Shown: one piece after another, positions 15,251 through 57,121 of the stretch
Layout of the letters: each line of letters starts with the position of its first letter
How positions within the stretch are numbered: the first letter of the stretch is position 1
DNA from: a virus
Taxonomy: Duplodnaviria; Heunggongvirae; Uroviricota; Caudoviricetes
DNA: 64,000 bases
Direction: 5' to 3' (one strand)
Virus record (IMG/VR): IMGVR_UViG_2675903313_000009
Made by a program: the position numbers and the translations under genes
Notes under the pieces: model-generated
Databases searched by the model: none
The model's input: the letters and a program-made list of their open reading frames with translations, nothing else
What the model was told of the DNA's origin: nothing

Positions 15251-15377
15251 TTATTAAGCCCCCCCTATGTACCTATCATTAAACCTTTACACCGCAGCCG
15301 TAGGCATTTAGGCTATATCACATATAAGAAAACAAGTTGTTTCAGACGATAATTATATACGCAAAGGGAACTCTCCA

Positions 15378-16046
15378 ATGACCAAGATCTTTGTGGTTGG
15401 CGGCACAAAGGGCGGGCCTGGCAAATCCACCGTTGCCCAGCAAATTGCCGTTTGCCTGAAAGTCAAAAAGAAGAAGAAGGTTTATATTACCGATATAGAT
15501 ATTCAGCGCACGACAACGAGCTGGTGTGAAGACCGTCGACAGAACGAAGACCTTGAGCTGATTCCTTTTGCATACGTTCAGGATGACATCATTAAGCACC
15601 TAAAATCGCTTCAGGGTAGAGCTGAGTTTGTAGTGGTAGATGCTGGTGGCTTCGACTCCGAAATTCAGCGACAAGCGATGCTGATGGCTGACGTTATCAT
15701 TATCCCGCTGCGTCCTAAGCGTCGTGATTTGAAATCTTTACGTGACATCGATCCTATTATCGACAATGTTCGCAATGTAAACGATAAAGTGAAGGTCCGC
15801 GCGGTCATGAACCAGTGCCCGGCTTTGCCATCACAAGTGTCTCGCATTCTGGCGGCTAAAGAGATTGTTGAGACGTTTGGCATCGAGTCTGCGCCAGTCA
15901 ATCTATATAACCGCAACGTCTATGATGATGCGGAAGAGTCTGGTCGTTCTATCTTTGAAATGACCGGTAGCGAGCGCGACAAAAAGGCGGAAGCCGAGTT
16001 TGAAGAATTTGTAGATTATCTGTTGAGTCTGGAGGAAGAAGAATAA
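15378..16046 (+). CDS. parA: ParA-like partition ATPase
   Basis: Deviant Walker A GGTKGGPGKST at the N-terminus; 222 aa, size of small type Ib ParA. Confidence 0.85.
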   Translation: MTKIFVVGGTKGGPGKSTVAQQIAVCLKVKKKKKVYITDIDIQRTTTSWCEDRRQNEDLELIPFAYVQDDIIKHLKSLQGRAEFVVVDAGGFDSEIQRQAMLMADVIIIPLRPKRRDLKSLRDIDPIIDNVRNVNDKVKVRAVMNQCPALPSQVSRILAAKEIVETFGIESAPVNLYNRNVYDDAEESGRSIFEMTGSERDKKAEAEFEEFVDYLLSLEEEE

Positions 16047-16405
16047 TGTCCATGAAAATGGGTGACCTAGCAAAGCGCAAAGAGCCTGATGCACCGGCTA
16101 AGAACACAACTCCTTTGCGCCAACCAGTCAGACCACAGGGACGCCCGACTCGTGGCAAAGAGAAAATTAAAAGCCGCACAATGTCACTGGAGGACGAATA
16201 CTTCGAACTGCTGGAGATGATGAAGTTCATCCCTCGCTTCGAGAAGTTCACTCGTTCTGACGTGATTCGTGCTGCTATTTTCCATCTTGCGGAGAAGACA
16301 CCGCAGGAAATCGAGGACATCGTGAAACTTAACGAGGCGATCACAGCTGCCGATGTCACGATGCGTACCGATGAAATCAAACGCGAGTTGATGAAGAAAG
16401 GTTAA
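16046..16405 (+). CDS. Small partition partner (ParG/ParB-like)
   Basis: 119 aa, basic N-terminus, overlaps the parA stop; fold assignment not verified. Confidence 0.5.
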   Translation: MSMKMGDLAKRKEPDAPAKNTTPLRQPVRPQGRPTRGKEKIKSRTMSLEDEYFELLEMMKFIPRFEKFTRSDVIRAAIFHLAEKTPQEIEDIVKLNEAITAADVTMRTDEIKRELMKKG

Positions 16406-16412
16406 TTTTATT

Positions 16413-16437
16413 GAGGTGCTGCTTGGCACCTCTTTCT
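16413..16437 (+). terminator. Rho-independent terminator after the partition operon
   Basis: GAGGTGC-TGCTTG-GCACCTC hairpin followed by TTTCT. Confidence 0.55.
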
Positions 16438-16449
16438 ATAGGTTCCCTA

Positions 16450-17169
16450 ATGCTCTACAAATATATTGGAAGTGAAGATTCGCAAAAAGTGTTACGTAAC
16501 CTCAAACGGTTTGTAGAGGACGGCACTATCTCTGCTAGCGCACCTTCTTCATTCAACGACCCATCAGAGTTCAAAGTTTCGATAACGATGGGAGGTACAG
16601 AAGTGGAGCACCGGAAACACTTTGAAGACAATGGATGTAAGGATTTTTCCTTTGAAGACTGGGATGCTGTAGCTCCTGAAGCTGCAAAATCGTTGGCTGT
16701 GGATTTGCGGAAAGAATCATTAGGGGCTTTTGGTGTGGTGTGCTTGTCACCAAACGAAGATAACATCTTGATGTGGTCACATTACTCAGTGTCGCATAAA
16801 GGTTTCTGCATAGGCTTTGATGATGATTTTGTTACCTCTATTGAGGGGTATCACAGCTTTGATAATGTGAAATATATACCTTCTGTTCCCGTGTTCGATG
16901 AAGTTACAGATGAGTTTAAGGTACTTTTTGATAAGCTCTTTTTCTACAAGCACGAATGCTGGAAATATGAGGAAGAACAAAGGGTTATTACTAAAAAAAT
17001 AGGCGCTCAGGCATTTGATAAGAAATATATTAGAGAGATCATTCTTGGACATAACGTTTCTCCTGAAGTAGAAGAATATGCCCGGACACAGCTAGACACG
17101 AGCATCGAGGTTTACAAAATGAGTACACCTGATGATGGTTATCTTCTTGTCAAAGAAAAGCTGAAGTAG
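16450..17169 (+). CDS. Hypothetical protein (DUF2971-like by motif memory)
   Basis: ATG at 16450 inside track ORF 16411-17169; begins MLYKY...; motifs FNDPSEF, MWSHYSVSHKGFCIGFD and ECWKYEEEQR resemble the DUF2971 pattern as I remember it (unverified). Confidence 0.5.
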   Translation: MLYKYIGSEDSQKVLRNLKRFVEDGTISASAPSSFNDPSEFKVSITMGGTEVEHRKHFEDNGCKDFSFEDWDAVAPEAAKSLAVDLRKESLGAFGVVCLSPNEDNILMWSHYSVSHKGFCIGFDDDFVTSIEGYHSFDNVKYIPSVPVFDEVTDEFKVLFDKLFFYKHECWKYEEEQRVITKKIGAQAFDKKYIREIILGHNVSPEVEEYARTQLDTSIEVYKMSTPDDGYLLVKEKLK

Positions 17170-17235
17170 CTCCAGACTTTCCTCAAATGATTATGTTGGG
17201 CGCTTTTCTTATTGAACTGGTTAGTGAGGCTAATA

Positions 17236-18408
17236 ATGGATTTGTTCTCAACCAAAATAGCAAAAAACAAGCTGCACGAATCTTTTAAACAGATTTATCA
17301 AGATAATACATATGCTCCAGTAAGAGAAGTGATACAGTCGTGGGGGCGTGGGTTACTGGAGCGTAGCGGTGAGCAGACTAAATTCGTTAAAGAGTTTCAG
17401 ACAACCTTCAATTCCGCCTTATGGGAATTGTATCTGAACGAAATGTTTATTCGTCTCGATTATTCTGTCGACTACACAAAAGACAGTCCCGATTTCTGTG
17501 TTACTACACCGTCAGGCTACCAGTTTAACGTCGAAGCTGTGATATCAGATCGGCCACATAATCCACCTGCAGGTGTTCTTTTTAGCGAATCAAAATTCAA
17601 ACATCAATCAACGCTAAAATTAATCGGAAAAATCAAAGACAAACATGATCTTTTTACAGGAGTTAATGGCAAAAAATTCCCGTACTCTACGATGTCTCAT
17701 GTAGTTAATAAGCCGTTTGTTCTGGCGCTTGCACCCTTTGACTCCGATTTATCATTGTCTCAAAATAACACAATCATCAATCGAGTGTTGTTTGGCATTG
17801 AGGAACCTACCACCAGAAATTTGGTGACTGGCAGCCAAACTAAAGTTACCTCAATCAAAAAGAATGAAGACGTTGAAATTCCATTAGGTATATTTACTAA
17901 CGACTCATATAAAGAAATAAGTGCGGTTATTTTCTCCACCACCGGCACTTTTGGAAAAGCCGTGGTTCAAAGCGGTATCGGTAGATATGTAAGGTCAACA
18001 CGATATCGAGCCATTGATGTGAATGATTTCATCGCCAATGAAGGGATGAAAAACGAGGGAAAGCACACACAAAGGATAGGACCTGATCATTTCATCACTA
18101 CATATCGGCATTTTTTAAATAACGAAGTCACTGGTGCGGATATTGTAGTTTGTCATTCCACTGCTCATGAAGAGACGCACTTTGACGGCCTTCATATTTA
18201 CTACAATCCTTTTGCGACAGTGCCACTGGACAGAAATATTTTCTTCCCCCCAGAGATAACTCATAATTTTTACGATATGGAAAAAGAACAGTCTGTTCAG
18301 AATCATCCTGATGGAGCGCTGGTATCTAGACAGGTTTTTGAACCAACTAGAGCACATTTTAGGTATATCATGAAACATTGGTTTCCAGGCTTTCTAAAAG
18401 ATGTTTAA
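17236..18408 (+). CDS. Hypothetical protein (about 390 aa), no recognisable domain
   Basis: Internal ATG of track ORF 17212-18408, preceded by a GAGG-like RBS; more AT-rich than the flanking modules; 66 nt downstream of the DUF2971-like gene, same strand. Confidence 0.5.
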   Translation: MDLFSTKIAKNKLHESFKQIYQDNTYAPVREVIQSWGRGLLERSGEQTKFVKEFQTTFNSALWELYLNEMFIRLDYSVDYTKDSPDFCVTTPSGYQFNVEAVISDRPHNPPAGVLFSESKFKHQSTLKLIGKIKDKHDLFTGVNGKKFPYSTMSHVVNKPFVLALAPFDSDLSLSQNNTIINRVLFGIEEPTTRNLVTGSQTKVTSIKKNEDVEIPLGIFTNDSYKEISAVIFSTTGTFGKAVVQSGIGRYVRSTRYRAIDVNDFIANEGMKNEGKHTQRIGPDHFITTYRHFLNNEVTGADIVVCHSTAHEETHFDGLHIYYNPFATVPLDRNIFFPPEITHNFYDMEKEQSVQNHPDGALVSRQVFEPTRAHFRYIMKHWFPGFLKDV

Positions 18409-18432
18409 GCATCCTGCTGGTTGAATTTGGAA

Positions 18433-18495
18433 CCTGCTTCTGTATATAAATACTAAGTTACTTATTATTATTTATACGGAAGCAGGTCTTTTTCT
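18433..18495 (+). terminator. Long AT-rich palindrome / terminator closing the cassette
   Basis: CCTGCTTCTGTATATAAATA ... TATTTATACGGAAGCAGG inverted repeat followed by TCTTTTTCT; loop contains TAAGTTACTTAT. Confidence 0.55.
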
Positions 18496-18596
18496 ATGCC
18501 AACTTCCCAGACACATTCCCTTCCGTTTCCACTTCCAAAAACTGCCACCAGTCGCTATCATCCGCTCATTGCAATAAGTAAGTAACTACCTATCTG

Positions 18597-19346
18597 GTGA
18601 GCCACATGAGCCAAATCTTTTTTGATACCATTGACAACGACCAGTACGACTTCATGACAGAGTGGAATACCGCTGTTATGGACAAGTGGGTCGCTGAAAA
18701 CATTGGTTTGTCGCGCTGCAAAGACGAGGCTGAACTCTTCGAGACGAAGTGGTTTGATTACCGCGATATGCATCCTCTCATGGCCACCTGTCTGTTTACG
18801 GAGGCGTACAAACGTCAGTACTCAAATATCATGCTGACGCACGGTCGCGAACACTTTGAAACAGCTCCGTTCACCACCGGGTTAAAACGCCTGCCTTATC
18901 AGGAGTTGTCGACTGCCAATAAAACGTCGCTATGGAAAGCACGCCAGTTTGCTGATCGCTATTGCTGTTCATACGACTACTTTATCTCCACGGTTCTTTC
19001 CGCAGCTGCACGGCGTCTGTGGGACAAGTTGCCGCGCCCACAGCATTTATGGCAGCCAGAACTGGTTGAGATATTCGAAGAGAAATTATCCAGACGCGCA
19101 ACAACCCGTCTGGATGACTCTCTGGTTAGCTTTAAGCATATGGGAGACATGCAGTTCAACCCGATTCAGGAAAGCTATTTTGAGTGGATTCTGGAGCGTT
19201 TGCGCATCATCCCCCGCAGCAAGCGCATACGCGCAATTTTCTCTGCTATCTGGCTAATGGAAATCGTTCCAGAGCGCCTTATTTCCGCCCACTTTCCAGA
19301 AGAACTGGAAGAAGCACGGCGGTTTATTGATCCCCTATCTAATTAA
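18597..19346 (+). CDS. Hypothetical protein (249 aa) preceding the helicase; possible replication accessory
   Basis: Track ORF (GTG start 18597 or ATG 18606); no motif recognised. Confidence 0.5.
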   Translation: MSHMSQIFFDTIDNDQYDFMTEWNTAVMDKWVAENIGLSRCKDEAELFETKWFDYRDMHPLMATCLFTEAYKRQYSNIMLTHGREHFETAPFTTGLKRLPYQELSTANKTSLWKARQFADRYCCSYDYFISTVLSAAARRLWDKLPRPQHLWQPELVEIFEEKLSRRATTRLDDSLVSFKHMGDMQFNPIQESYFEWILERLRIIPRSKRIRAIFSAIWLMEIVPERLISAHFPEELEEARRFIDPLSN

Positions 19347-19389
19347 CTAATACTAGAAAACAATTTGTTTAAAAAACAAAGGAAAGCAC

Positions 19390-20730
19390 ATGACCGAACT
19401 TTGCCATACAGGACGCGGGCTGTCCGAAGAGTTTGATGAAGATTTCCAGAACAGACTGACGGCATATTTTTGTCGTGATCACGAGTTTCTTACTCGTGCG
19501 GGAGATCTGGTTGTGCCTAGCCAATTTGCCAATGCGGCCAATGCCATATTGGTTAATATGGTTTCGGGCTATTACCGTATGTACAAGAGCGCGCCTTCTT
19601 CATCTGCGATTCTGGATATGCTTAAGCGCGCGAAACGCGATAAGACCATCCGTGAGGAACTCTTCCCGGATGTTGTTGCTGCGTTTAAGCGCATCCTTGC
19701 AGAAAAATTGTCTGATACCACGTACATGGTTGACCAGGTATCCACATTCGCAAAAAGTGTAGCGTTTGATGATGCTCTGATTAAAGCTGCTGAACTGAAA
19801 GAGAAGGGCGACTTTCAGGGGGCGATGGCAATCATGGCCAAGGTTCAGCAGATAGGCTCGAACGAAGCGACCGGAATCTATGACTACTACACCTCCGCAA
19901 GTGAGCGATTGAAAGCGCGTGAATATGAGGCTTCAGAGGAGTATGTGCCAAACAGCATTACAACTGGACTCCCTCTGCTCGATAGGTTGCTGTACCAAAA
20001 AGGCTGGGCGAAGCGTGAAATGGTGCTCTTCATGGGGTTCGCTAAATCCGGCAAATCGACCGCAATGGGTGAGTTTTCCATAAACGCAACGCTTGCTGGC
20101 TACAATGTTCTGTATCTCTCGCTGGAGGTTCACACCACCATTTTATCCGACCGTTTTGATGCAAGATTGTCGGAGACAGAAATGTCCAAGCTGGTGGAAC
20201 GGCGCGATGAGGTTCATCGTAAGTTGGCAGAGTTGGGAGCCACGAAGGGGATTGGTAGTTTGTGGGTGGTTGAGCGTCCGTCAGGAAGTATGTCACCGGC
20301 AGATCTGGACCGTATGCTTAACAGCATGAAAGCCAACGGCATGGTGCCTGACATGGTTGTTGTCGACTACGCAGATTTGATGCGTGCCAGTTATGACCTT
20401 CGTGATGATCGCGCCAACATTCGTAGTATCTACACCGATTTACGTGCTCTTTATGACAAGCATAACGTTGCTGGGATTACGGCATCGCAGACAAACCGTG
20501 AAGGTGGCGCGTCAGAAGTTGCCACAATGATGCACGCTGCCGACAACATCGAAAAAGTACGTATTGCTGACCTGGTAATAACGATCAACAAAACCGAAGA
20601 AGAAGAAGCGAAAGGAGAGGCTCGTCTCTACTTTGCTGGTTCACGTAACCAGCAGGGAGGGATCAGCATTCGCGTTAAACAAAACCTCGAACAAATGCGC
20701 TTCATTGAGCGAATCTTAGACGTTACCTAA
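19390..20730 (+). CDS. Replicative DNA helicase (DnaB family, RecA-like core)
   Basis: Walker A GFAKSGKST; 446 aa; conserved leader AAAGGAAAGCACATG upstream. Confidence 0.7.
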   Translation: MTELCHTGRGLSEEFDEDFQNRLTAYFCRDHEFLTRAGDLVVPSQFANAANAILVNMVSGYYRMYKSAPSSSAILDMLKRAKRDKTIREELFPDVVAAFKRILAEKLSDTTYMVDQVSTFAKSVAFDDALIKAAELKEKGDFQGAMAIMAKVQQIGSNEATGIYDYYTSASERLKAREYEASEEYVPNSITTGLPLLDRLLYQKGWAKREMVLFMGFAKSGKSTAMGEFSINATLAGYNVLYLSLEVHTTILSDRFDARLSETEMSKLVERRDEVHRKLAELGATKGIGSLWVVERPSGSMSPADLDRMLNSMKANGMVPDMVVVDYADLMRASYDLRDDRANIRSIYTDLRALYDKHNVAGITASQTNREGGASEVATMMHAADNIEKVRIADLVITINKTEEEEAKGEARLYFAGSRNQQGGISIRVKQNLEQMRFIERILDVT

Positions 20731-20811
20731 AAAATAAGCGTGGAGAACACCTCCACGCTTGATTCATTGGTGAAACAACTTTTCTTTTGCCAAACCACAA
20801 AAGAAAAACAC

Positions 20812-21993
20812 ATGAACCTTTATATTATATCAACATTTAGGTTGGTCACAATATTGCCTATTAAAAGTGGAATTATCGTGAGCGAGCTGAAAGAGCTAAT
20901 TACCGAATTAGATTTTGAACAATGGTTGGACACTGAAGGTATCGTTTATCGACGTGGAGGCGTGAGTGCTCGCGGTCGTGAAGTGAATATCAAGGAGTGT
21001 CCGGTATGTGGCAGCTCCAACTGGAAGGTATATTTCAATCTGACCAGTGGCGTCGGCAAATGCTTTGCTGGTGATCATCCCGAAGAGATTCAGTTCAATA
21101 AGCTGATCTTCCTCAAGCACTACAGCGGTAAATCACGACGACAGTTCGAGGAATATGTGCAGAACGCGCTGATCTCACAAGGATGGGCGCCGAAGAAGGA
21201 AGAGGTCGTGCTGGCCAGCAAGGTTGAACTCGAAGGGCCAGTAGCTCTCCCTCGACATTACGAACTCCCCATTGACGGTCGTCTTCCTGATTATCTGGTG
21301 GAGCGCCATATCTCCCCGGATCTGGCCAAATACTTTGATCTGCGTTACTGCGTCGAAGGCAAGCACGCATACGTCGATCCGTACACAGACCAGGTCAAAG
21401 GGCAGGTGTTTGATATGCGCATCCTGATACCGGTTTACGATCTGGATGGCGTGATGAAGACCTTCCAGGGGCGTGACATTACCGGTGCAGCAGAACGTCG
21501 CTACCTCTTTCCTATGCAGCTTCCAGCTTCAGGTAGGTTTCTCTACAACGGCCATAATGCAGTCGGCAAACAGACTGTAGTTGTCTGTGAGGGGGCGTTC
21601 GATGTTATGGGGGTCAAACGAGCTATTTTTGACGAAGAAACATTACGTGATTACGTGGAACCAATAGGAACGTTCGGGATGCATCTATCTGGTAACACCA
21701 CTCAGGATGCAGAAGATCAGCTGGGCGCGTTCCTGACGCTCAAGGCGCGTGGGCTACGTAATGTGATTATGATGTGGGATAGTGAAAAGCAGGCTATACG
21801 CAACACTATGGCCGCAGCCAGGCGACTGAGCAGTATTGGTCTTAATGTGAAAATTGCATGTTTGGGCGAGGAAGGACTCGACCCCGGCGATGCGACCCCG
21901 GGGCAGATTATCAAAGCCTACTATTGCGCAAAACCTTACTCACGACAGCTTGAACTTTTAAGCAAGGTAAAAGGCATAGCTGCATTAGTTTGA
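20812..21993 (+). CDS. DNA primase (zinc-binding plus TOPRIM)
   Basis: ATG at 20812 follows the conserved AAAAGAAAAACACATG leader; CPVCGSS..GKCF zinc motif and VVCEGAFDVMG TOPRIM-like block. Track ORF 20740 starts inside a hairpin after the helicase gene. Confidence 0.65.
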   Translation: MNLYIISTFRLVTILPIKSGIIVSELKELITELDFEQWLDTEGIVYRRGGVSARGREVNIKECPVCGSSNWKVYFNLTSGVGKCFAGDHPEEIQFNKLIFLKHYSGKSRRQFEEYVQNALISQGWAPKKEEVVLASKVELEGPVALPRHYELPIDGRLPDYLVERHISPDLAKYFDLRYCVEGKHAYVDPYTDQVKGQVFDMRILIPVYDLDGVMKTFQGRDITGAAERRYLFPMQLPASGRFLYNGHNAVGKQTVVVCEGAFDVMGVKRAIFDEETLRDYVEPIGTFGMHLSGNTTQDAEDQLGAFLTLKARGLRNVIMMWDSEKQAIRNTMAAARRLSSIGLNVKIACLGEEGLDPGDATPGQIIKAYYCAKPYSRQLELLSKVKGIAALV

Positions 21994-23130
21994 ACCAGTA
22001 TTAGTCACATACACATTGACCGAAAATGATTTAACTTCAGTATTGAAGTTGTCAGTCATTACCGCGAGGTAGGCATTTTTGGTATCTCTGAATTGCTTCA
22101 GGATGATTTGAACGTTATCTGTGCAAACAAACGAGGTAGCCAGATTGCCTCCTTTCTCTGAAAAATCCTTCAGGAATGTGCAGTCAACTTTGCCATCATT
22201 AGCGGTGAAGGTAGCATCATCACCCTGCCAGGTAAATGTAGCGTTAACGCCCTTATCAATGGATTTAGCAATAAGTCGCTGGGTGGCGGATTTTGTTTTG
22301 GCTTTGGAAGCCGGCGCTCGATATTTGCCGCTTTCTTTCAGTTCTGCAATGTAATCGCAGCCTCTTTTTTCTCCTTTATCGCAAGCAGTCTGATAAAGGT
22401 CGGCTGCTTTTTTATAGTCCTTTTTTACACCTTCCCCATTCTCATACATAATGCCAAGATTGGTTATGGCGTCGGCGTTTCCAAGTTCCGCTGCCTTTTT
22501 ATACCACTTAACTGCTTCTGCATCATTGCGTTTAACGCCTAACCCATCATCGTATAGTATTCCTAATCCTATCATAGCTTCTGAACTGCCTTGGTCTGCC
22601 GCCTTTTTGTAATAAGTAAAAGCCTTTTTATAATTCTTTTTAACGCCTTTACCATATTGGTAATACGCCCCAAGAACTGAAGTTGCTTTAACATACCCGG
22701 CATCAGAGGCTAGTTTGAAGTATTTAATGGCGAGTGCATGATCTACTTTACCAAGCAACCCCTTTTGATAAATAGCACCAAGATTGTTGTAGGCTCTACC
22801 TTCACGAGCATCCCCCGCAAGTTTGTAGTACTCAACAGCTTTATTTAGGTCTTTATCTACACCCTCGCCAAATGTGTACATAACCCCAAGTGCATAATAT
22901 GCTACTTTGTCTCCCTTTTCTGCAGCGAGATCAATCCACTTCTTGGCCTCAACTACATCCTTATCAAAACCATTGATACCATCAAAATAATTTGTCCCTA
23001 ACTCACTTTGTGCTGCGGTATCCCCTGCGGTAGCGGCTTCTATCAGCGTTTGTTTATTGTCTGCGTTAACGAATCCAGAGCTAAAAAGCAAAGTTAATGC
23101 CAGCAACGATGAAGATTTTATGTATTTCAT
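21985..23130 (-). CDS. Secreted Sel1-repeat (TPR-like) protein
   Basis: Start at internal Met (MKYIKSSSLLALTLLFSSGFVNA signal peptide) of track ORF 21985-23175; at least seven Sel1-like units (A..YY.LG..Y..G.GV.KD...A..WYKKAA). Confidence 0.75.
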   Translation of the reverse strand: MKYIKSSSLLALTLLFSSGFVNADNKQTLIEAATAGDTAAQSELGTNYFDGINGFDKDVVEAKKWIDLAAEKGDKVAYYALGVMYTFGEGVDKDLNKAVEYYKLAGDAREGRAYNNLGAIYQKGLLGKVDHALAIKYFKLASDAGYVKATSVLGAYYQYGKGVKKNYKKAFTYYKKAADQGSSEAMIGLGILYDDGLGVKRNDAEAVKWYKKAAELGNADAITNLGIMYENGEGVKKDYKKAADLYQTACDKGEKRGCDYIAELKESGKYRAPASKAKTKSATQRLIAKSIDKGVNATFTWQGDDATFTANDGKVDCTFLKDFSEKGGNLATSFVCTDNVQIILKQFRDTKNAYLAVMTDNFNTEVKSFSVNVYVTNTGSN

Positions 23131-23363
23131 ATTTTTTGTTCTGTTGATATAGGATGAACAGTTTAGACGCGGCAAGCGTCAAGTGTGCGAAAAAGGGTAC
23201 TTAAATTTAGTTAATATGTCAGCTTTGTTGATTTAGTTTATGGTCGGTAAAGTTACTAGGAAACTAATAACCATAAGAAATAGTACGCCATTTAATTATT
23301 GTGGCACTGCTCGTGTTTTGATTAACTAATACCTGCGATAAATATAAATAAAGGGAAGCCAAC

Positions 23364-23777
23364 ATGAGCAAAAATAAGCTGATTTTAACAGGAGCTTTAT
23401 TGTCTTTGTTTGCTTTAGTGGGGTGTAAGCCTACAGACGAGAAGGCTATTGCTCTGGGCCAACAAGCAATTGCGGATGATATGAAAGATCCCACGTCGGT
23501 GATGTTTAGGAAAGATAAGTTTGTCAGGACTGATCATGACGATGGGAGTGTGACAGGCTTTGTGTGCGGAGAATTGAACGCCAAAAATGGCTTTGGTGCA
23601 TACGTGGGCTATCACTCATATGTTGTTGAACTCGAAATGAAGCCAAAGGGCATGTTTTCGAAAGGGGTGGTATACAAAATCCTATCGAAGTCGTTGGCAC
23701 CTAATGATCCTCATGACTTACAGCGTTATAAGCAGGTCTACAGAAAGATGTGCAACAGTGAGGCTGTAGCTCATTAA
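23364..23777 (+). CDS. Lipoprotein (137 aa)
   Basis: Signal peptide with lipobox (LFALVGC). Confidence 0.55.
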   Translation: MSKNKLILTGALLSLFALVGCKPTDEKAIALGQQAIADDMKDPTSVMFRKDKFVRTDHDDGSVTGFVCGELNAKNGFGAYVGYHSYVVELEMKPKGMFSKGVVYKILSKSLAPNDPHDLQRYKQVYRKMCNSEAVAH

Positions 23778-23902
23778 TGGTGAATGCCGGGCAGACTATA
23801 AGCCCGGCATCTTCGTATAGGGAACTATTGCGCCTAAAATGATAAGTAGATACATACTTAGTTTTTTGTAAGAATACTTTCATCTGTTAGCTAGGAGTTG
23901 GT

Positions 23903-24679
23903 ATGAAAGACGAAATTCAGAAATTGGCCTGTGACATCATTGATAAAACAGGTTTAGAAATCAGCGAGGGCAGTCGACTAGACATCATTGGAAAGGCCGT
24001 CAATACAGCAATGAATCATATCGCTGCTCGTATGGACGAGATCCCGCTACCAGGGTTGCCTTATCTGAAAGTTGAGTTACACGTATGGGGCGAACCTTCT
24101 TGTGCACGGCGTTCTGCATTAGTTGTTTTTATTAGCAAAGAAAACCCGCTCAGTCTTAAAGTGCAGGTTGGAGCATGGCTTGATGGCAGAGTGATCTACA
24201 CAAATACCGTTTTTTGTCTTTCAAACGACGAAACTATTGAAGCGGCCATTCAAGAAGCAGTTCTAGCAATGCGCAGCAGCGGTTTGATGAAGAATAACTA
24301 CGAAGAGTACTTGCGTTCGATAAGTGGTGAAAAGACATTATCTCTGAAAGCAGATTTCGTTACCCCGAAAAATCTGTTGGAAGTTTTGATTAATAAAGGG
24401 GCTAATAGTGCCGTAAATGTAATCAGAGAGAGTGAATACGCGTCTCTTTGGGATATGTGCAAAAGCCAGTTGGATCTTGTGCATATCGTTGTAGATGCGG
24501 GGAAGGCTTGTGATGGCGTAATGGCGGAATTTACTGGGAAGATGGTCAGGATTGCTAACGAATTACCGATGATTAAACAAGAGGCTAAATCATACGCCAC
24601 CAATCATGTCACAGAGCTTCTTGCCCCTTATCGCTTAGAAAGCGATCAGCGCAAGATGATTAGCTGGGGAAGTTGGTAA
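23903..24679 (+). CDS. Hypothetical protein (258 aa)
   Basis: Track ORF; no motif recognised. Confidence 0.5.
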   Translation: MKDEIQKLACDIIDKTGLEISEGSRLDIIGKAVNTAMNHIAARMDEIPLPGLPYLKVELHVWGEPSCARRSALVVFISKENPLSLKVQVGAWLDGRVIYTNTVFCLSNDETIEAAIQEAVLAMRSSGLMKNNYEEYLRSISGEKTLSLKADFVTPKNLLEVLINKGANSAVNVIRESEYASLWDMCKSQLDLVHIVVDAGKACDGVMAEFTGKMVRIANELPMIKQEAKSYATNHVTELLAPYRLESDQRKMISWGSW

Positions 24680-28125: not shown

Positions 28126-28200
28126 GATGGTGTAGCTCAGCGGTAGAGCAGTTGGCTGTTAACCAACTGGTCGGTGGTTCGAATCCACCCACCATCGCCA
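28126..28200 (+). tRNA. tRNA-Asn (anticodon GTT)
   Basis: Hand-folded cloverleaf: acceptor GATGGTG/CACCATC, anticodon loop CTGTTAA, T-loop TTCGAAT, encoded CCA. Confidence 0.8.
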
Positions 28201-28205
28201 ATTTA

Positions 28206-28292
28206 GGGGAGTTAGTCCGTAGAGGTAGCGGTGTAGACTGTAAATCTACTGTCATGGCGACTCGGGTGGTTCGACTCCATCACTCCCCACCA
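28206..28292 (+). tRNA. tRNA-Tyr (anticodon GTA), long variable arm
   Basis: Acceptor GGGGAGT/ACTCCCC, anticodon stem-loop GTAGA-CTGTAAA-TCTAC, T-loop TTCGACT, CCA end; D-arm not fully canonical in my fold. Confidence 0.65.
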
Positions 28293-28296
28293 AATT

Positions 28297-28372
28297 GCCG
28301 GTTTAGCTCAGTTGGTAGAGCAGTCGCTTTGTAAGCGAATGGCCAGCGGTTCAAGTCCGTTAACCGGCACCA
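28297..28372 (+). tRNA. tRNA-Thr (anticodon TGT)
   Basis: Acceptor GCCGGTT/AACCGGC, D-arm AGCTCAGTTGGTAGAGC, anticodon loop TTTGTAA, T-loop TTCAAGT, CCA end. Confidence 0.8.
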
Positions 28373-28373
28373 A

Positions 28374-28462
28374 CACAACAGGTAAGAGCATTGGGCGAAT
28401 CGGCGATACTGACCCACAAGGCCGTAAATCGATAGAGTCAGACCAGTGCTCTTACCGTTGTG
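28374..28462. repeat. Long inverted repeat (about 20-bp arms CACAACAGGTAAGAGCATTGG / CCAGTGCTCTTACCGTTGTG)
   Basis: Between tRNA-Thr and tRNA-Ser; one bulge and one mismatch. Confidence 0.6.
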
Positions 28463-28562
28463 ATGAATGCACAGGCTGATGTGCCGCAACTACAGTAGTG
28501 CGCGCTTTGCGGGGCTTGCTACAACCCTGTGTCGGAGTTCAGTACCGACCATCACAATAGCT

Positions 28563-28649
28563 GGAGAGTAGGGAGCATGGTGCTCAAGCGGTCTTGAAAA
28601 CCGTTCCATTGTGCAAACGATGATGGTTCGATTCCATTACTCTCCGCCA
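28563..28649 (+). tRNA. tRNA-Ser (anticodon TGA), long variable arm
   Basis: Acceptor GGAGAGT/ACTCTCC, anticodon stem-loop GCGGT-CTTGAAA-ACCGT, T-loop TTCGATT, CCA end. Confidence 0.7.
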
Positions 28650-31838: not shown

Positions 31839-32219
31839 AGACTTTATGGCCTCAACAACCTTTTGTGATGCGCCTTTCTCTTTACCGAATCGCTCGTTAT
31901 ATGCAGCAAGAACCTGTTTTTCGTCCTCGTTAAGAGGAGCGGTGCCTTCTTTGTATAAAAATGCTGCGAGTTCAGGTTGGCGTTCTTCCAGCACCATCAT
32001 CATAAGACGACTTGGCTCAATACCCAGCGCCAGCGCCAACGGACGAACCTTATCGATAGGCAAAGGAATTTTGCCACTTTTAATTAAAGAAAGGTTGTTG
32101 GCATTTTTATAACCAATAAGTCTGGCTATTTGGGCCTGACTCATAGGTGAGGATTCAATCAGCCCTGCGATAAAAGCAGCATAGCGACTTTCTATAAATT
32201 CAATCTTGTTGTCAGACAT
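31833..32219 (-). CDS. HTH (XRE-family-like) transcriptional regulator, candidate repressor
   Basis: HTH-like segment MSQAQIARLIGYKNANNLSLIKSGK; divergent from a promoter region containing GGTAAGTGCTTACC palindromes. Confidence 0.65.
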   Translation of the reverse strand: MSDNKIEFIESRYAAFIAGLIESSPMSQAQIARLIGYKNANNLSLIKSGKIPLPIDKVRPLALALGIEPSRLMMMVLEERQPELAAFLYKEGTAPLNEDEKQVLAAYNERFGKEKGASQKVVEAIKSL

Positions 32220-32682: not shown

Positions 32683-32780
32683 CCCCTCTTCTCCCTGCGC
32701 GAATGGCTTAGTTCCCTGTTCGCGCAGTGCTACATTAAACACACTAGTAAATAATTTGTTTTCATAACAAAGGATTAGCC

Positions 32781-42627: not shown

Positions 42628-42893
42628 TGCTTAAATCGATTATCAATGGCGCTACAACCACCCCTGCCCAACTGGCAAAAGAGATTGTCTTTTATCACGG
42701 TGAGTACGCTGTCATCGCACTGCCGTCAATTCTAGGCGCTGCCGGAATGAAAGCGACAGATCGCGAGTTTGGATTAGTCAGCGAGCAGGTCGTAAAAATC
42801 CTCGCTCGTGTATCCAGACTCCTTAACCACGATGCGATTGTATTCGATGAATCCGCCGCTTTAAAACGAATCAACGAAACAAAAGGAGCCTGA
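42621..42893 (+). CDS. Small hypothetical protein (90 aa)
   Basis: Track ORF overlapping the FEN stop; weak. Confidence 0.35.
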   Translation: MLMLKSIINGATTTPAQLAKEIVFYHGEYAVIALPSILGAAGMKATDREFGLVSEQVVKILARVSRLLNHDAIVFDESAALKRINETKGA

Positions 42894-43998: not shown

Positions 43999-44061
43999 AT
44001 CTCTTGAAAATATATAAGTACTTACTTATTATTTTCGCATAACAACCACATAGGAAAACAC

Positions 44062-44262: not shown

Positions 44263-44265
44263 GTA

Positions 44266-45096: not shown

Positions 45097-45113
45097 CTCC
45101 CCTTAAAAGTTCA

Positions 45114-45138
45114 GGCGTCCAGTTGGACGCCTTTTTTA
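45114..45138 (+). terminator. Rho-independent terminator (GGCGTCC...GGACGCC family)
   Basis: GGCGTCC-AGTT-GGACGCC followed by TTTTTT. Confidence 0.75.
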
Positions 45139-45187
45139 TCGCAATTATCTTATTAAGAAAACAATTTGTTTAAAAGGATAAGAAAAC

Positions 45188-45613
45188 ATGACAGTTATTA
45201 AGAAACTCTACGATGCCGCAAACGTGGCTCTGGATGTTATTGATGATGAAGTAGCAAAAGGCTTTCCTGAACCTGATTGGGCGCATCAGCTACGAAACGC
45301 TATCGCAGAAATGACCCCACCAGATCCAACCCCCGACGAGACAGACTGGCAGCGATTCATCCGTATGTACGCTCAGGAAATAGGTCCAACGCCAACGGCA
45401 GAGCAGGCAATGCTGCTGAAATACTTCAAAGAGGCGGGAGAGGATTTACCAATTGATGACTCAGCATATTGGTTCCACTGCGCATGGCGTAAGTATGACG
45501 TGATATTCACACAAGGCATGGGAAGCAAAGATATGGTTGTGTGGCATCTACTCCATATAGACACAGCCGTTGACAGAGTTATTGAACAGTTTTTCCCTAA
45601 CCAAGAAGATTGA
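45188..45613 (+). CDS. Hypothetical protein (141 aa)
   Basis: Track ORF preceded by the AAACAATTTGTTT palindrome and RBS. Confidence 0.5.
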   Translation: MTVIKKLYDAANVALDVIDDEVAKGFPEPDWAHQLRNAIAEMTPPDPTPDETDWQRFIRMYAQEIGPTPTAEQAMLLKYFKEAGEDLPIDDSAYWFHCAWRKYDVIFTQGMGSKDMVVWHLLHIDTAVDRVIEQFFPNQED

Positions 45614-51168: not shown

Positions 51169-51209
51169 GGCAAAGTCGTTATGGGAGCTTTCGAGACTTT
51201 GCCATCACG

Positions 51210-54047: not shown

Positions 54048-54056
54048 GGAGACTAT

Positions 54057-54626: not shown

Positions 54627-54660
54627 TTTCATTGATAGGTAAGTGCTTATCTATTAACAT

Positions 54661-54692
54661 GGGCCACTATATTTAGTGGCCCTCTTTATTTG
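54661..54692 (+). terminator. Rho-independent terminator
   Basis: GGGCCACTA-N-TAGTGGCCC hairpin followed by a T-rich tract. Confidence 0.6.
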
Positions 54693-54699
54693 GTGATAC

Positions 54700-57015
54700 A
54701 TGATAAGCATCGTAAAACGTAACGGCCAAACAGAGCCGTTATCCGAAGAAAAATACAACCGCGTCGTAATGTATGGCGTAGAAGGCATTCGTGGTGTAAG
54801 CGCATCCGCTGTAGCAATGGGAGCTGCGGCCAGCATTTTTGATGGGATTACCACCAGCCAGTTGCATGAGGCTTTGGTTAAATCTGCCGCTGATTTGATC
54901 TCACCAGAAGCACCAAATTACTCACAGGTGGCTGCCCGCCTGAACATTTTTAAAATCCGCAAAGATGCCTTCGGTCGTTACGACTATCCGAACTTCTACC
55001 AACACATTGTCAAGAACGTTAACAAGGGCGTTTATGACAAGGATTTGCTGACACATTATTCGTTTGAAGAGATCGAAGAACTCGGCAATTACATTAAGCC
55101 GAAACGTGACGATCTTTTTGGCTATGCAGCTACGGTGCAGTTGCAAAGCAAATACCTCGTTCAAAACCGTGTTACTGGTGAGATTCATGAGGGGCCGCAA
55201 CATATCTATATGCTGGTAGGCATGTGTCTGTTCCAGAATTGGGAAGACGACTGCGCTGGCAAAACACGTATGGAGATGGTCAAAGGTTTCTATGACGTTA
55301 CAAGTACGTTCAAACTGTCTCTGCCCACACCAATCATGGCCGGCGTCCGTACTCCAACCCGTCAGTTCTCCAGTTGTGTGCTGATTGAGTCTGGCGATAG
55401 TCTGAAAGGGATTAGTGCAGCTTCAGCCGCAATTATCGACTACGTTTCACGTCGTGCTGGAATTGGTATTGGTTTTGGCCGTATCCGTGCGCTGGGCAGC
55501 GAGATCCGCAATGGTGAAGCCACCCATACCGGAGTTATTCCATTCCTGAAGCATTTCCAGACGGCTGTTAAATCTTGTTCGCAAGGTGGTGTTCGTGGTG
55601 GCGCAGCAACAGCGTTTTACCCGATCTGGCATCTTGAAGTTGAAAGTCTGCTGGTGGTGAAAAATAACCGTGGTATTGATGAAAACCGCGTTCGCCATCT
55701 TGATTACGGCGTCATGAGTAACCGTCTAATGTACCGTCGACTCGTCAGAAGCGAGAACATCACTCTGTTCAGCCCGCATGATGTGCCTGATATGTACGAA
55801 GCCTTCTTCACAGACCAGGAGCTGTTTGAAAAGCTGTACCATAAATACGAAGCCGATGATTCAATTCGCAAGAAGTCAGTACCTGCCATTGAGCTGTTCT
55901 CATCTCTGATGCAGGAACGAGCGTCCACGGGCCGAATTTATATTGCGAACGTCGATCATATTAATGAGCATGGCGCTTTCATTCCTGCTCTTGCACCTGT
56001 CCGCCAGTCAAACCTGTGTATGGAGATCACCCTACCCACCCGTCCACTGGCATTTACCGACGACCCGAACGGTGAGATCGCGCTATGCACTTTATCCGCT
56101 TTTAACCTCGGAGCCATCCGTTCACTGGAGTCTCTTAAAGAGGTGGCGTTCTATGCCGTTGCTGCACTGGATTCGTTACTGGATTATCAAGACTATCCGA
56201 TGGAGGCAGCCGAAGTGCCTGCCAAAGCTCGTCGTAGCTTGGGAATTGGTGTAACCAACTTTGCTTATTACCTGGCAAAGAATGGCGTTCGTTATTCTGA
56301 TACCGCTGGCAATAAACTGGTGCATGAAACGTTCGAAGCTATCCAGTATTACCTTCTTGATGCCAGCTGCCGACTTGCCGAAGCAAAAGGTGAGTGTGAC
56401 TGGTTTGAGCAGACCAAATACGCAATTGGTCAGTTGCCGATCGACCATTACCGTTCTTCATTAGACGAAAGTGGCGAAACAAACTTTGAGTTAAAGATGC
56501 CGTGGGAAGAACTGCGTGAACGTATTGCAAAATACGGCCTTCGCAACTCCACACTGACGGCACAAATGCCATGCGAGACTTCCAGCCAGATCACTAATTC
56601 CACCAACGGCATCGAACCGCCTCGTGGCCCGGTGTCAGTGAAATCTTCTAAGGACGGCATCGTCAAGATGGTCGTGCCTGAGTTTGAAAAACTGAAGGAA
56701 CAGTATGAATACCTGTGGGATATGCCGGACAACCGCGGCTATCTGACAAAGGTGGCGATCATCCAGAAGTTCTTTGACCAGGCTATTTCGGCCAATACCA
56801 ACTATGACCCTTCTCGCTTTGAAGGCGATAAAGTCCCAATGATGACGCTACTGTCAGATTTGCTTCTCGCCTACAAGATGGGAGTTAAAACGCTTTACTA
56901 CCACAACACCAGAGATGGTGCAGGAAAGCGTGATGACGACGAACCGCAGAATCCACTGGCGCAAGCTGTAGCCGTCGAGCCAGAAGATGAGTGCGACGGA
57001 GCCTGCAAAATCTGA
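54700..57015 (+). CDS. nrdA: Ribonucleoside-diphosphate reductase class Ia, alpha subunit
   Basis: 771 aa; N-terminal ATP-cone, long blocks matching E. coli NrdA from memory (YLVQNRVTGEI, PTPIMAGVRTPTRQFSSCVLIE, SQGGVRGGAAT, SNLCMEI) and C-terminal CDGACKI. Confidence 0.95.
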   Translation: MISIVKRNGQTEPLSEEKYNRVVMYGVEGIRGVSASAVAMGAAASIFDGITTSQLHEALVKSAADLISPEAPNYSQVAARLNIFKIRKDAFGRYDYPNFYQHIVKNVNKGVYDKDLLTHYSFEEIEELGNYIKPKRDDLFGYAATVQLQSKYLVQNRVTGEIHEGPQHIYMLVGMCLFQNWEDDCAGKTRMEMVKGFYDVTSTFKLSLPTPIMAGVRTPTRQFSSCVLIESGDSLKGISAASAAIIDYVSRRAGIGIGFGRIRALGSEIRNGEATHTGVIPFLKHFQTAVKSCSQGGVRGGAATAFYPIWHLEVESLLVVKNNRGIDENRVRHLDYGVMSNRLMYRRLVRSENITLFSPHDVPDMYEAFFTDQELFEKLYHKYEADDSIRKKSVPAIELFSSLMQERASTGRIYIANVDHINEHGAFIPALAPVRQSNLCMEITLPTRPLAFTDDPNGEIALCTLSAFNLGAIRSLESLKEVAFYAVAALDSLLDYQDYPMEAAEVPAKARRSLGIGVTNFAYYLAKNGVRYSDTAGNKLVHETFEAIQYYLLDASCRLAEAKGECDWFEQTKYAIGQLPIDHYRSSLDESGETNFELKMPWEELRERIAKYGLRNSTLTAQMPCETSSQITNSTNGIEPPRGPVSVKSSKDGIVKMVVPEFEKLKEQYEYLWDMPDNRGYLTKVAIIQKFFDQAISANTNYDPSRFEGDKVPMMTLLSDLLLAYKMGVKTLYYHNTRDGAGKRDDDEPQNPLAQAVAVEPEDECDGACKI

Positions 57016-57020
57016 CATAT

Positions 57021-57050
57021 GGTGGGGGATATCCCCACCTTCTCTTTGAT
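57021..57050 (+). terminator. Hairpin/terminator after nrdA
   Basis: GGTGGGGGA-TAT-CCCCACC hairpin followed by a T-rich tract. Confidence 0.5.
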
Positions 57051-57121
57051 TTGTAAGCCTTGTTTAAACACATAAGATAACAACTTGTTTAAACGCACCA
57101 AAAAAGAAAAAGGAAAAACAC

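What the first reader, a model, noticed from the sequence alone, without database searches (positions are those of the whole stretch)
15330..57090. Second palindrome family AAACAA-N-TTGTTT upstream of parA, the helicase gene, gene 45188 and nrdB
Near-identical perfect palindromes at about 15330 (AAACAAGTTGTTT), 19358 and 45159 (AAACAATTTGTTT) and 57079 (AACAACTTGTTT, with GTTTAAAC beside it) sit 20-40 nt upstream of start codons of functionally unrelated genes. This suggests a common regulator or shared promoter element for an early gene class.
Basis: seen in the sequence. Interest (0 to 1): 0.5.

Follow-up and report, generated by a model that had tools for sequence, protein, structure and literature searches.

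The report
Dispersed operator palindrome of a phage-plasmid
The palindrome is real and is one of about twenty copies of a conserved protein-binding site (AGAAAACAAnTTGTTT) that sits just after the promoters of many genes in SSU5-like phage-plasmids of E. coli, Salmonella and Klebsiella, most likely the operator through which one still-unidentified repressor keeps these genes quiet while the phage lives as a plasmid.

Summary
Confirmed. The window is part of an SSU5-like phage-plasmid of E. coli. It holds exactly five copies of the motif, 0.01 to 0.2 expected by chance. All are intergenic and lie 16-35 nt before a start codon.

The whole element carries about 18 copies. Salmonella SSU5 has 20 and two Klebsiella lineages have 17 and 21. 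It is the commonest 6+6 palindrome in each genome. Arms are kept at orthologous sites while the centre base and flanks drift. The true unit is asymmetric: AGA-AAACAAnTTGTTT.

Family-wide, a sigma-70 -10 hexamer peaks 13-14 nt upstream, with TG at -15/-14 in 20 of 28 cases. That puts the palindrome at about +8 to +20. Extra copies lie 51 bp upstream or 25 bp away. No RNA structure is predicted.

In a published lysogen transcriptome the downstream genes sit at background, except the parA operon. A virulent syntenic relative and two distant temperate relatives lack the motif.

Best reading: a dispersed operator, possibly also a roadblock, for an element-encoded repressor. The favoured binder, unproven, is the 119-aa protein encoded after parA. 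This is a new member of a known kind, comparable to P1 C1 operators, L5 stoperators and KorB or omega sites. I found no published description.

The parts
15327..15342 (+). Motif copy 1, AGAAAACAAGTTGTTT, 35 nt before the parA start
   Evidence: Exact match; sequence; 23.3 bits with the external weight matrix. It is identical in Cyrano, SSU5 and Klebsiella pJN2-26 and is kept as AGAAAACATCTTGTTT in the divergent pVH1-2-1 lineage.
19355..19370 (+). Motif copy 2, AGAAAACAATTTGTTT, 19 nt before the DnaB-like helicase start and 11 nt after the stop of the preceding gene
   Evidence: Orthologous copies are AAACAAATTATTT in SSU5, AAACAACTTGTTT in pJN2-26 and AAACAAGTTGTTT in pVH1, with diverged flanks.
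32746..32761 (+).
   Evidence: The orthologues read AAACAAATTGTTT in SSU5 and AAACAATTTGTTT in pJN2-26.
32728..32736 (+). Putative extended -10 promoter element TGcTACATT, ending 12 nt before copy 3
   Evidence: Read from the sequence. The same position reads TGaTAAATT in SSU5 and TGtTATTTT in pJN2-26. No start site has been mapped.
45156..45171 (+). Motif copy 4, AGAAAACAATTTGTTT, 16 nt before the DUF7238 gene (45188-45613)
57075..57090 (+). Motif copy 5, AGATAACAACTTGTTT, 31 nt before nrdB
   Evidence: SSU5 has TAACAATTTGTTT here. pJN2-26 has a pair 25 bp apart here.
15227..15246 (+). Terminator-like hairpin upstream of copy 1, which marks a new transcription unit
45113..45132 (+). Terminator-like hairpin 27 nt upstream of copy 4
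57021..57039 (+). Terminator-like hairpin between nrdA and copy 5
15378..16046 (+). Small ParA-type partition ATPase (222 aa), first gene of the operon behind copy 1
   Evidence: Pfam MipZ/AAA_31/CbiA/ParA. Expressed about 5-fold above background in the Cyrano lysogen.
16046..16405 (+). 119-aa ParA partner, the favoured but unproven candidate for the protein that binds the motif
   Evidence: Found only in the four lineages that carry the motif. Absent from the three relatives that lack it. The segments RPQGRPTRGK..IKSRTMS.EDE and FTRSDVIRAAI are invariant down to 48% overall identity. Expressed 9-fold above background in the lysogen. Fold not established.

Best explanation
The motif is a DNA operator. 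It is the binding site of a dimeric DNA-binding protein encoded by the phage-plasmid itself, copied about twenty times around the genome. In the canonical copies it lies 13-14 nt downstream of an extended -10 sigma-70 promoter, at about +8 to +20, and just upstream of the ribosome-binding site. A protein bound there would block RNA polymerase from binding or from leaving the promoter. Where no promoter is evident, as between nrdA and nrdB or just before the helicase gene, the bound protein could act as a roadblock to read-through transcription. Some promoters carry a second copy centred near -38, 51 bp upstream. Others carry a tandem copy 25 bp away, which implies cooperative binding. The network keeps a set of replication, nucleotide-metabolism and small early genes, and the head of the late operon, silent while the element is maintained as a plasmid. 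The most likely binder (my estimate is about 0.35-0.4) is the 119-aa protein encoded directly after parA. That protein would then act both as the ParA adaptor and as a global repressor, as omega of pSM19035 and KorB of RK2 do. Shown here: the sites, their number, conservation, geometry and co-occurrence. Inferred: the transcription start points, repression, and the identity of the binder.
For: - **Above chance and complete.**
- **Whole-genome family.** There are 18 copies in the near-identical plasmid CP142588.1, all intergenic and co-oriented with the downstream gene. Cyrano has 18, SSU5 has 20, Klebsiella pJN2-26 has 17 and the divergent pVH1-2-1 has 21. It is the top 6+6 palindrome in each genome.
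- **Purifying selection.** The arms are kept while the centre base carries no information (A9/C15/G15/T9) and the flanks diverge.
- **Promoter geometry.** The best -10 hexamer peaks at 13-14 nt upstream in 24 of 45 unique sites. TG is present at -15/-14 in 20 of 28 sites, against about 1 in 16 expected. Terminator-like hairpins lie just upstream of three window copies.
- **Recognition as DNA.** The extended motif AGAAAACAAnTTGTTT occurs in both orientations, always with the AGA end facing the promoter core. Upstream copies lie outside the leader. Pairs occur only at 25 bp and 51 bp. No RNA structure is predicted and there is no Rfam match.
- **Lysogen transcriptome of Cyrano** (PMC9928086, S1 Table; background 9.8). 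Genes behind the motif read terS 7.1, cobT 7.8, g58 5.7, nrdB 12.9, g85 7.0, g87 7.1, g101 7.5, g105 12.8, g106 12.2, g110 6.7, helicase 21 and g111 25.5. The parA operon reads 50-89.
- **Link to the temperate enterobacterial lineage.** The motif is absent from the virulent syntenic Pseudomonas phage nickie, which has no enriched palindrome at all. It is also absent from the temperate Acinetobacter and Aeromonas relatives.
- **Binder candidate.** The ParA partner co-occurs perfectly with the motif, has invariant segments, is expressed in the lysogen, and its own operon carries a copy, as an autoregulated gene would.
Against: - No transcription start, protein binding or mutant phenotype is available. 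Every functional step is inferred.
- The simple sigma-70 scan, which needs both hexamers, finds no promoter at any of the five window copies or at the canonical copies. Support rests on the -10 and TG only.
- Only two of the five window copies (19358 weakly, 32749 well) have a recognisable -10 at the canonical distance.
- Silence in the lysogen is not specific to these genes. Nearly all lytic genes are at background.
- The invariant AGA on one side only is not what a symmetric dimer predicts.
- The 25-bp spacing is about 2.4 helical turns.
- For the binder, the suspected ribbon-helix-helix fold of the 119-aa protein was not confirmed by any test. Pfam gave nothing, the PDB profile search gave nothing, the AlphaFold2 model has pLDDT 63.5, Foldseek gave nothing, and hhalign against ParG, omega, Arc and CopG gave nothing.
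- The FljA-like protein co-occurs with the motif just as perfectly.
Confidence: 0.6

Rival explanations
1. The motif is an mRNA operator. It is read in the 5' leader by the element's FljA-like protein, acting as a translational repressor in the manner of Salmonella FljA on fliC mRNA or T4 RegA on many early mRNAs.
For: All motif-bearing elements encode a full-length FljA homologue (Pfam PF03614, E 1e-80). FljA-type proteins are reported to block translation of fliC mRNA (PMC2652032; bioRxiv 10.1101/2025.10.27.684867). With the inferred start points the motif lies in the leader, 11-35 nt before the start codon. The gene co-occurs with the motif in 4 of 4 genomes and is absent from 3 of 3 relatives without it. 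It is retained in non-motile Klebsiella, which hints at a target other than flagellin.
Against: The extended motif also occurs in the opposite orientation upstream of promoters, and in tandem at fixed 25/51-bp spacing, which an RNA reader does not explain. Dyad symmetry is not needed for RNA recognition, and no hairpin forms. The FljA-like protein has drifted to 33% identity in pVH1-2-1 while the motif is unchanged. The E. coli fliC leader, which a FljA-type repressor is reported to silence, has no match to the motif: the best score is -4.1 bits. No copy lies at the protein's own gene.
Confidence: 0.08
2. The motif is a positive promoter element. It would be part of a phage-specific promoter read by RNA polymerase together with a phage activator, for example the 88-aa winged-helix protein encoded just before the terminase operon. 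The genes would then be silent in lysogens because the activator is absent.
For: The flanks are asymmetric and co-oriented with transcription (AGA, ACACCAA). -35 hexamers are poor. The winged-helix protein is well conserved (89, 84 and 78% identity) and sits next to the tandem copies at terS. It is silent in the lysogen (7.8).
Against: The motif lies downstream of a good extended -10, a position typical of repression. An activator site there would leave no room for a downstream promoter, because start codons follow within 11-35 nt. Homologues of the winged-helix protein exist in the Acinetobacter and Aeromonas elements, which lack the motif. TGnGATAAT promoters are expected to be active with host polymerase alone (established knowledge of extended -10 promoters).
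Confidence: 0.12
3. The copies are only partition (centromere) sites for the ParA system and have no role in transcription.
For: One copy precedes parA. The ParA partner co-occurs with the motif. No other repeat array was seen next to the par genes. Dispersed centromere sites are known in N15 and RK2 (from memory).
Against: Every copy sits at a fixed distance from a -10 hexamer or start codon and never inside a gene. Centromere function alone does not require that.
Confidence: 0.07
4. The motif is the binding site of a host transcription factor shared by E. coli, Salmonella and Klebsiella.
For: The motif is unchanged across elements from three host genera.
Against: I know of no enterobacterial regulator with this consensus (memory only, not tested). 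The nearest I recall differ in spacing: KdgR AAACA-N-TGTTT and CusR ACAA-NN-TTGT. The host chromosome could not be scanned with these tools.
Confidence: 0.06
5. The copies are relics of duplicated promoter cassettes or recombination boundaries and have no present function.
For: Many copies share a long common upstream block (GCCTTTT...TGnGATAAT...ACACCAA), as duplicated cassettes would.
Against: At orthologous positions the flanks have diverged while the 16-nt core has not. This holds even at 68-69% protein identity of neighbouring genes. The five window copies share little beyond the core.
Confidence: 0.03

Closest known systems
Phage P1 C1 repressor and its dispersed operators (from memory)
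   Same: It is a plasmid prophage whose lytic functions are held off through many operators scattered round the genome at individual promoters, including a replicative helicase gene.
   Different: P1 operators are asymmetric 17-mers bound by a monomer. Here the site is a 13-bp dyad with a one-sided AGA, lying downstream of the -10. I did not look for a C1 homologue. In these elements a second, more numerous palindrome family fills promoter spacers and looks more like the master repressor's network.
Mycobacteriophage L5/Bxb1 'stoperators' (Brown et al. 1997, from memory)
   Same: They are about 13 bp long, number two to three dozen per genome, lie in short intergenic gaps, and are oriented with transcription. 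They silence the prophage by blocking polymerase passage as well as initiation.
   Different: L5 sites are asymmetric and are bound by the immunity repressor gp71. Here the core is symmetric, most canonical copies lie right after a promoter, and the binder is unknown.
KorB (ParB family) and KorA operators of IncP plasmid RK2 (from memory)
   Same: They are 12-13-bp palindromes (KorB: TTTAGCSGCTAAA) repeated about a dozen times at promoters of unrelated operons. KorB is at once the partition protein and a global repressor.
   Different: The sequence is different. The two ParB-like genes of this element are silent in the lysogen (5.0 and 9.5) and also occur in relatives without the motif.
Omega of pSM19035 and ParG of TP228, the type Ib centromere-binding repressors (from memory)
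   Same: A small protein encoded after a small ParA binds sites in several promoter regions. Those sites serve both as operators and as centromeres, and the par operon is autoregulated.
   Different: Omega and ParG bind arrays of short repeats, not one 13-bp dyad. The ribbon-helix-helix fold could not be shown for the 119-aa protein. About 20 sites at lytic promoters would be a much wider regulon.
lac operator O1 at +11
   Same: A dyad operator lies just downstream of the start point, with auxiliary operators that act cooperatively.
   Different: lac is a single operon with a LacI-type tetramer. Here the auxiliary copy is only 51 bp away.
Phage 434 operators (ACAA-N6-TTGT)
   Same: They share the half-site letters ACAA/TTGT.
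   Different: The half-sites are 6 bp apart in 434 and 1 bp apart here. This is a resemblance of letters only.

Membership tests
Operator of a dimeric DNA-binding repressor | Dyad symmetry with an unconstrained centre | tested here: met
   Both arms are near-invariant in 48 unique sites and the centre base reads A9/C15/G15/T9. Caveat: the sites were selected at one mismatch or fewer, and an invariant AGA on one side breaks the symmetry.
Operator of a dimeric DNA-binding repressor | Site overlaps or abuts the core promoter or start point | tested here: inconclusive
   A -10 hexamer lies 13-14 nt upstream in 24 of 45 sites, with TG in 20 of 28. No start sites are mapped, and three of the five window copies lack a clear -10.
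Operator of a dimeric DNA-binding repressor | Conserved at orthologous positions while flanks diverge | tested here: met
Operator of a dimeric DNA-binding repressor | Controlled genes are off when the repressor is present | tested here: inconclusive
   Genes behind the motif are at background in the Cyrano lysogen, but so are nearly all lytic genes.
Operator of a dimeric DNA-binding repressor | A cognate protein binds the site | not testable with these tools
   Only co-occurrence and conservation of candidates could be examined.
Sigma-70 extended -10 promoter | TG at -15/-14 before a TAnnnT hexamer | tested here: met
   Met in 20 of 28 sites family-wide. In the window this holds only at 32728-32736.
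Sigma-70 canonical promoter | A -35 hexamer 16-18 bp upstream of the -10 | tested here: not met
   No hit at any motif copy. Only a loose TTT/TTG..GCC block is present.
Type Ib partition centromere/operator (omega, ParG) | Site lies in the promoter region of the par operon, and a small ParA is followed by a small partner | tested here: met
   Copy 1 lies 35 nt before parA (222 aa), which is followed by the 119-aa gene.
Type Ib partition centromere/operator (omega, ParG) | The partner has a ribbon-helix-helix fold | tested here: not met
   No Pfam or PDB match. The AlphaFold2 model has pLDDT 63.5 and helices only. Foldseek and hhalign gave nothing. A strand that forms only in the dimer would be missed, so this is weak negative evidence.
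Type Ib partition centromere/operator (omega, ParG) | Arrays of short direct or inverted repeats | tested here: not met
   There is a single 13-bp dyad per site, at most two per promoter.
KorB-type operator | TTTAGCSGCTAAA bound by a ParB-family protein | tested here: not met
   The sequence differs. The ParB-like genes are silent in the lysogen and are present in relatives that lack the motif.
P1 C1 operator | Asymmetric 17-bp consensus | tested here: not met
   The site is a 13-bp dyad. The presence of a C1 homologue was not tested.
L5-type stoperator | Intergenic, in one orientation relative to transcription, and also inside operons | tested here: inconclusive
   All class A copies are co-oriented by their AGA flank and are intergenic. 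Copies between nrdA and nrdB and before the helicase gene fit this picture. A polar block of elongation cannot be tested here.
FljA/RegA-type mRNA operator | Strand-specific site in the leader near the ribosome-binding site | tested here: not met
   Class A copies fit. However, 10 class B copies carry the extended motif on the other strand, upstream of promoters. The E. coli fliC leader has no match.
Structured RNA or intrinsic terminator | Stable hairpin, or a match to a known RNA family | tested here: not met
   Leader folds are no better than shuffles (z from -1.4 to +0.6). Rfam finds only tRNAs.

The most novel reading that the evidence does not exclude
The small protein encoded after parA is both the partition adaptor and a global silencer. 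Its roughly twenty binding sites would serve together as a dispersed centromere and as operators or roadblocks at lytic promoters. Plasmid segregation and maintenance of lysogeny in SSU5-like phage-plasmids would then be run by one protein, alongside a separate CI-type network that uses the other palindrome family.
Probability: 0.3. Interest if true: 0.7.

Novelty: new member of a known kind. Interest (0 to 1): 0.45.

Why it matters
SSU5-like phage-plasmids are common in clinical E. coli, Klebsiella, Enterobacter and Salmonella. More than 700 plasmid records matched this window, and these elements carry resistance genes (PMC9600943, abstract). I found no paper describing how they control the switch between plasmid life and lytic growth.

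A 16-nt site present about twenty times, with a defined position at promoters, is a direct handle on that control:
- it can be used as bait to fish out the regulator;
- it defines the regulon;
- it can be mutated in reporters.

If the binder is the ParA partner, this would be a clear case of a phage-plasmid tying segregation to lysogeny control.

Tried and rejected
- **RNA structure.** The five leaders fold no better than shuffles, and the palindrome gives at most -0.7 kcal/mol on its own. Rfam finds only tRNAs.
- **CI-like HTH repressor (window 31833-32219, minus strand) as the binder.** Rejected. It is missing from SSU5, which keeps 20 copies. It is only 57% and 47% identical in the Klebsiella lineages although the motif is unchanged. 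It is present in the Acinetobacter element, which lacks the motif. Its own upstream region carries the other palindrome family instead.
- **92-aa protein after UvsW.** No homologue was detected in pVH1-2-1.
- **S24 peptidase.** It has no DNA-binding domain and is absent from SSU5 and Klebsiella.
- **FljA lead.** The published binding site could not be read because the papers are not held. The E. coli fliC leader has no match to the motif.
- **Ribbon-helix-helix fold of the ParA partner.** Pfam, PHROGs (unknown function), a PDB profile search, AlphaFold2, Foldseek and hhalign all failed to show it.
- **Pattern scan of IMG/VR with AGAAAACAANTTGTTT.** It returned mostly single chance hits plus SSU5-like contigs and was not informative.
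- **Literal sequence search of the paper library.** No hits.
- **A 2026 preprint on a phage-plasmid promoter.** It was listed but could not be opened.

Full report
**What the window is**

The window belongs to an SSU5-like phage-plasmid of E. coli. Bases 14000-24000 are 99.9% identical to plasmid pA98_p4 (CP142588.1) and 95% identical to phages Cyrano, PhiR41_1 and CMS-2020a. They are 83% identical to Salmonella phage SSU5 and 79% identical to Klebsiella phage pJN2-26. In all, 724 plasmid records match. The window maps to the minus strand of CP142588.1. It runs from tail genes through parA, helicase/primase, ligase, tRNAs, integrase, CobT/CobS-like genes, DnaE, recombination genes, RepB and SbcCD to NrdAB and ThyX.

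**The observation**

- AAACAANTTGTTT is exact at 15330, 19358 and 45159, against 0.01 expected.
- The core is also present at 57079, giving 4 hits against 0.22 expected.
- All five copies are intergenic and on the + strand, 16-35 nt before a start codon.
- A weight matrix trained on other genomes finds these five at 19-26 bits and nothing else above noise.
- At two mismatches the bare 13-mer is no longer above chance.

**The family is much larger than the window shows**

| Genome | Copies (one mismatch or fewer) |
|---|---|
| CP142588.1 (near-identical plasmid) | 18 |
| Cyrano | 18 |
| SSU5 | 20 |
| Klebsiella pJN2-26 | 17 |
| Klebsiella pVH1-2-1 (DnaB 69%, ParA 68% identical) | 21 |

- In CP142588.1, 13 copies lie outside the window. 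All 18 are intergenic and co-oriented with the next gene.
- An unbiased count of every 6+6 palindrome ranks this one first in all of these genomes.
- At orthologous positions the arms persist while the centre base and the flanks change. The helicase site reads AAACAATTTGTTT, AAACAAATTATTT, AAACAACTTGTTT and AAACAAGTTGTTT in four lineages.

**Anatomy**

Aligning 48 unique sites shows that the unit is asymmetric. AGA immediately 5' of the palindrome is as invariant as the arms (47 of 48). The centre base carries no information. Three arrangements occur.

- **Class A.** The motif follows ...GCCTTTT...TGnGATAAT(t)AACACCAAnA-AGA and precedes the ribosome-binding site.
- **Class B.** The extended motif sits on the other strand (palindrome followed by TCT), 51 bp upstream of a class A copy. 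Its centre falls near -38.
- **Tandem pairs.** A third arrangement is a pair 25 bp apart, seen at terS, at nrdB in pJN2-26 and at one pVH1 gene. Close pairs occur only at 25 bp (5 cases) and 51 bp (7 cases).

The best -10 hexamer peaks sharply 13-14 nt upstream of the palindrome, in 24 of 45 sites. Of 28 sites with a good -10 at 12-14 nt, 20 have TG at -15/-14. This marks extended -10 sigma-70 promoters and places the palindrome at about +8 to +20.

The two-hexamer promoter scan finds nothing at these sites, so the -35 is weak or absent. Among the five window copies:

- only 32749 has a clear extended -10 (TGcTACATT, conserved as TGaTAAATT and TGtTATTTT);
- 19358 has a weak -10;
- 15330, 45159 and 57078 have none at the canonical distance, but each follows a terminator-like hairpin.

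**DNA or RNA?**

- The leaders have no significant structure and no Rfam family matches.
- The extended motif occurs in both orientations, always with AGA towards the promoter core.
- Upstream and tandem copies keep fixed spacing.

These points fit recognition of double-stranded DNA by a protein that binds cooperatively. They do not fit an mRNA element.

**Expression**

In the published LF82 (Cyrano lysogen) transcriptome, with a background median of 9.8, genes directly behind the motif are at or near background. The parA operon reads 50, 89 and 55 (PMC9928086, S1 Table). This fits repression, but it is not specific because most lytic genes are silent.

**Distribution**

- The virulent but syntenic Pseudomonas phage nickie has no enriched palindrome at all.
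- The temperate Acinetobacter and Aeromonas phage-plasmids lack this motif.
- Both of those carry their own abundant palindrome, AGTCAGTACTGACT (27 copies) and AGTAA-N4-TTACT (14 copies).
- The Acinetobacter copies sit in promoter spacers, like a second family in the SSU5-likes (see below). The positions of the Aeromonas copies were not examined.

**Who binds it?**

| Candidate | In the 4 motif-bearing lineages | In relatives without the motif | Other points |
|---|---|---|---|
| CI-like HTH | Absent from SSU5; 57% and 47% identical in Klebsiella | Present in Acinetobacter | Its own promoter region carries the other palindrome family. Rejected. |
| 88-aa winged-helix protein before terS | Well conserved (89, 84, 78%) | Present in Acinetobacter and Aeromonas | Silent in the lysogen |
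| FljA homologue (PF03614, E 1e-80) | Present in all four; only 33% identical in pVH1 | Absent | The E. coli fliC leader has no match to the motif |
| 119-aa ParA partner (window 16046-16405) | Present in all four | Absent | See below |

For the 119-aa protein, two segments are invariant down to 48% overall identity. It is 9-fold above background in the lysogen. Its own operon carries a copy, as an autoregulated gene would. I suspected a ribbon-helix-helix fold from the sequence pattern, but no test confirmed it. I therefore favour this protein at roughly 0.35-0.4, not more.

**Mechanism proposed**

The motif is a dispersed operator for an element-encoded repressor. It lies at about +14 of extended -10 promoters, with an optional partner at about -38 or a tandem copy. 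It blocks initiation or escape. Where no promoter is evident it may act as a roadblock.

- Shown: the sites, their conservation, geometry and co-occurrence.
- Inferred: the start points, repression and the binder.

**Comparison with known systems** (from memory unless cited)

- P1 C1 operators, which are dispersed but asymmetric.
- L5 stoperators, which are 13 bp, oriented and intergenic, but asymmetric and bound by the immunity repressor.
- KorB and KorA of RK2, which use 12-13-bp palindromes at many promoters, with a partition protein acting as global repressor.
- Omega and ParG, where the partner of a small ParA binds promoter sites that double as centromeres.
- lac O1 at +11.

The motif works like these but fails sequence or architecture tests for membership in each. 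It is best filed as a new member of the class of dispersed prophage and plasmid operators.

**Literature**

No paper in the library mentions the sequence or the regulation of SSU5-like elements. One 2026 preprint on a phage-plasmid promoter could not be opened.

**Verdict**

The feature is real, conserved and almost certainly functional. Its kind is familiar, but its protein partner and its possible link to partition are open questions. Interest is moderate.

Noticed in passing
window 258, 7178, 12319, 18575, 23843, 27359, 30217, 34908, 40491, 44015, 45637, 49954, 54636, 59353 (and about 32250): A second, more numerous palindrome family is present, with consensus about aTAGGTAAGTACTTACCTAtcat. 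The count is about 18 loci in the window and 30-45 per related genome. It occurs in both late and early regions. In at least two places it fills the spacer of a good sigma-70 promoter: 44004-44032 (TTGAAA-17-TATTAT) and 54632-54660 (TTGATA-17-TAACAT). A copy lies right upstream of the CI-like HTH gene. The Acinetobacter relative has an analogous family, AGTCAGTACTGACT (27 copies), with two copies in its cI-cro gap. This looks like the master repressor's operator network.
   Followed up: partly
outside the window: Cyrano L006:780-1301 (minus); CP142588.1 79118-79642: All enterobacterial SSU5-like elements encode a full-length homologue of FljA, the repressor of phase-1 flagellin (PF03614, E 1e-80). 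This includes elements of non-motile Klebsiella. It is either a lysogenic-conversion gene that silences host flagellin or a regulator with a phage target.
   Followed up: partly
outside the window: Cyrano 54-134; CP142588.1 about 73100-73180: The terminase/late operon is preceded by a tandem motif pair. This is followed by a GC-rich hairpin with a T-rich tail (AGAGCGC...GCGCTCT GTGTGTTTT) before the terS start. It is a terminator-like element in the leader and hints at antitermination control of late genes.
   Followed up: no
window 28126-28646: This is a cluster of four tRNA-like genes. The last one (28562-28646) just reaches the Rfam threshold for tRNA-Sec (47.3 against 47 bits). It is more likely a long-arm tRNA, since Cyrano annotates tRNA-Ser here.
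   Followed up: no
window 30735-32682 compared with SSU5 42596-42729: Salmonella phage SSU5 lacks the whole integrase / CI-like repressor / small divergent gene block found in the E. coli and Klebsiella elements, yet it keeps both palindrome families. It looks like a deletion derivative that can no longer establish lysogeny.
   Followed up: partly
L144 1774-2313; L147 46019-46342: The Acinetobacter and Aeromonas relatives carry an Hfq-like gene directly upstream of the DnaB-like helicase. The FljA-like protein of the SSU5-likes has a faint Hfq/Sm-like match in its C-terminal half.
   Followed up: no
window about 8001 and about 60001; CP142588.1 6337-9507 and 112683-123715: The closest plasmid differs from the window by several IS91-family insertions. 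It also differs locally in the tail-fibre and thymidylate-synthase regions, where 40-mers from the window were not found.
   Followed up: no
window 16046-16405: The extreme N-terminus of the ParA partner, M..KMGDLAK(R/K), is invariant in all homologues, although the next 15-25 residues are hypervariable. This is the pattern expected of a short ParA-contact peptide.
   Followed up: no
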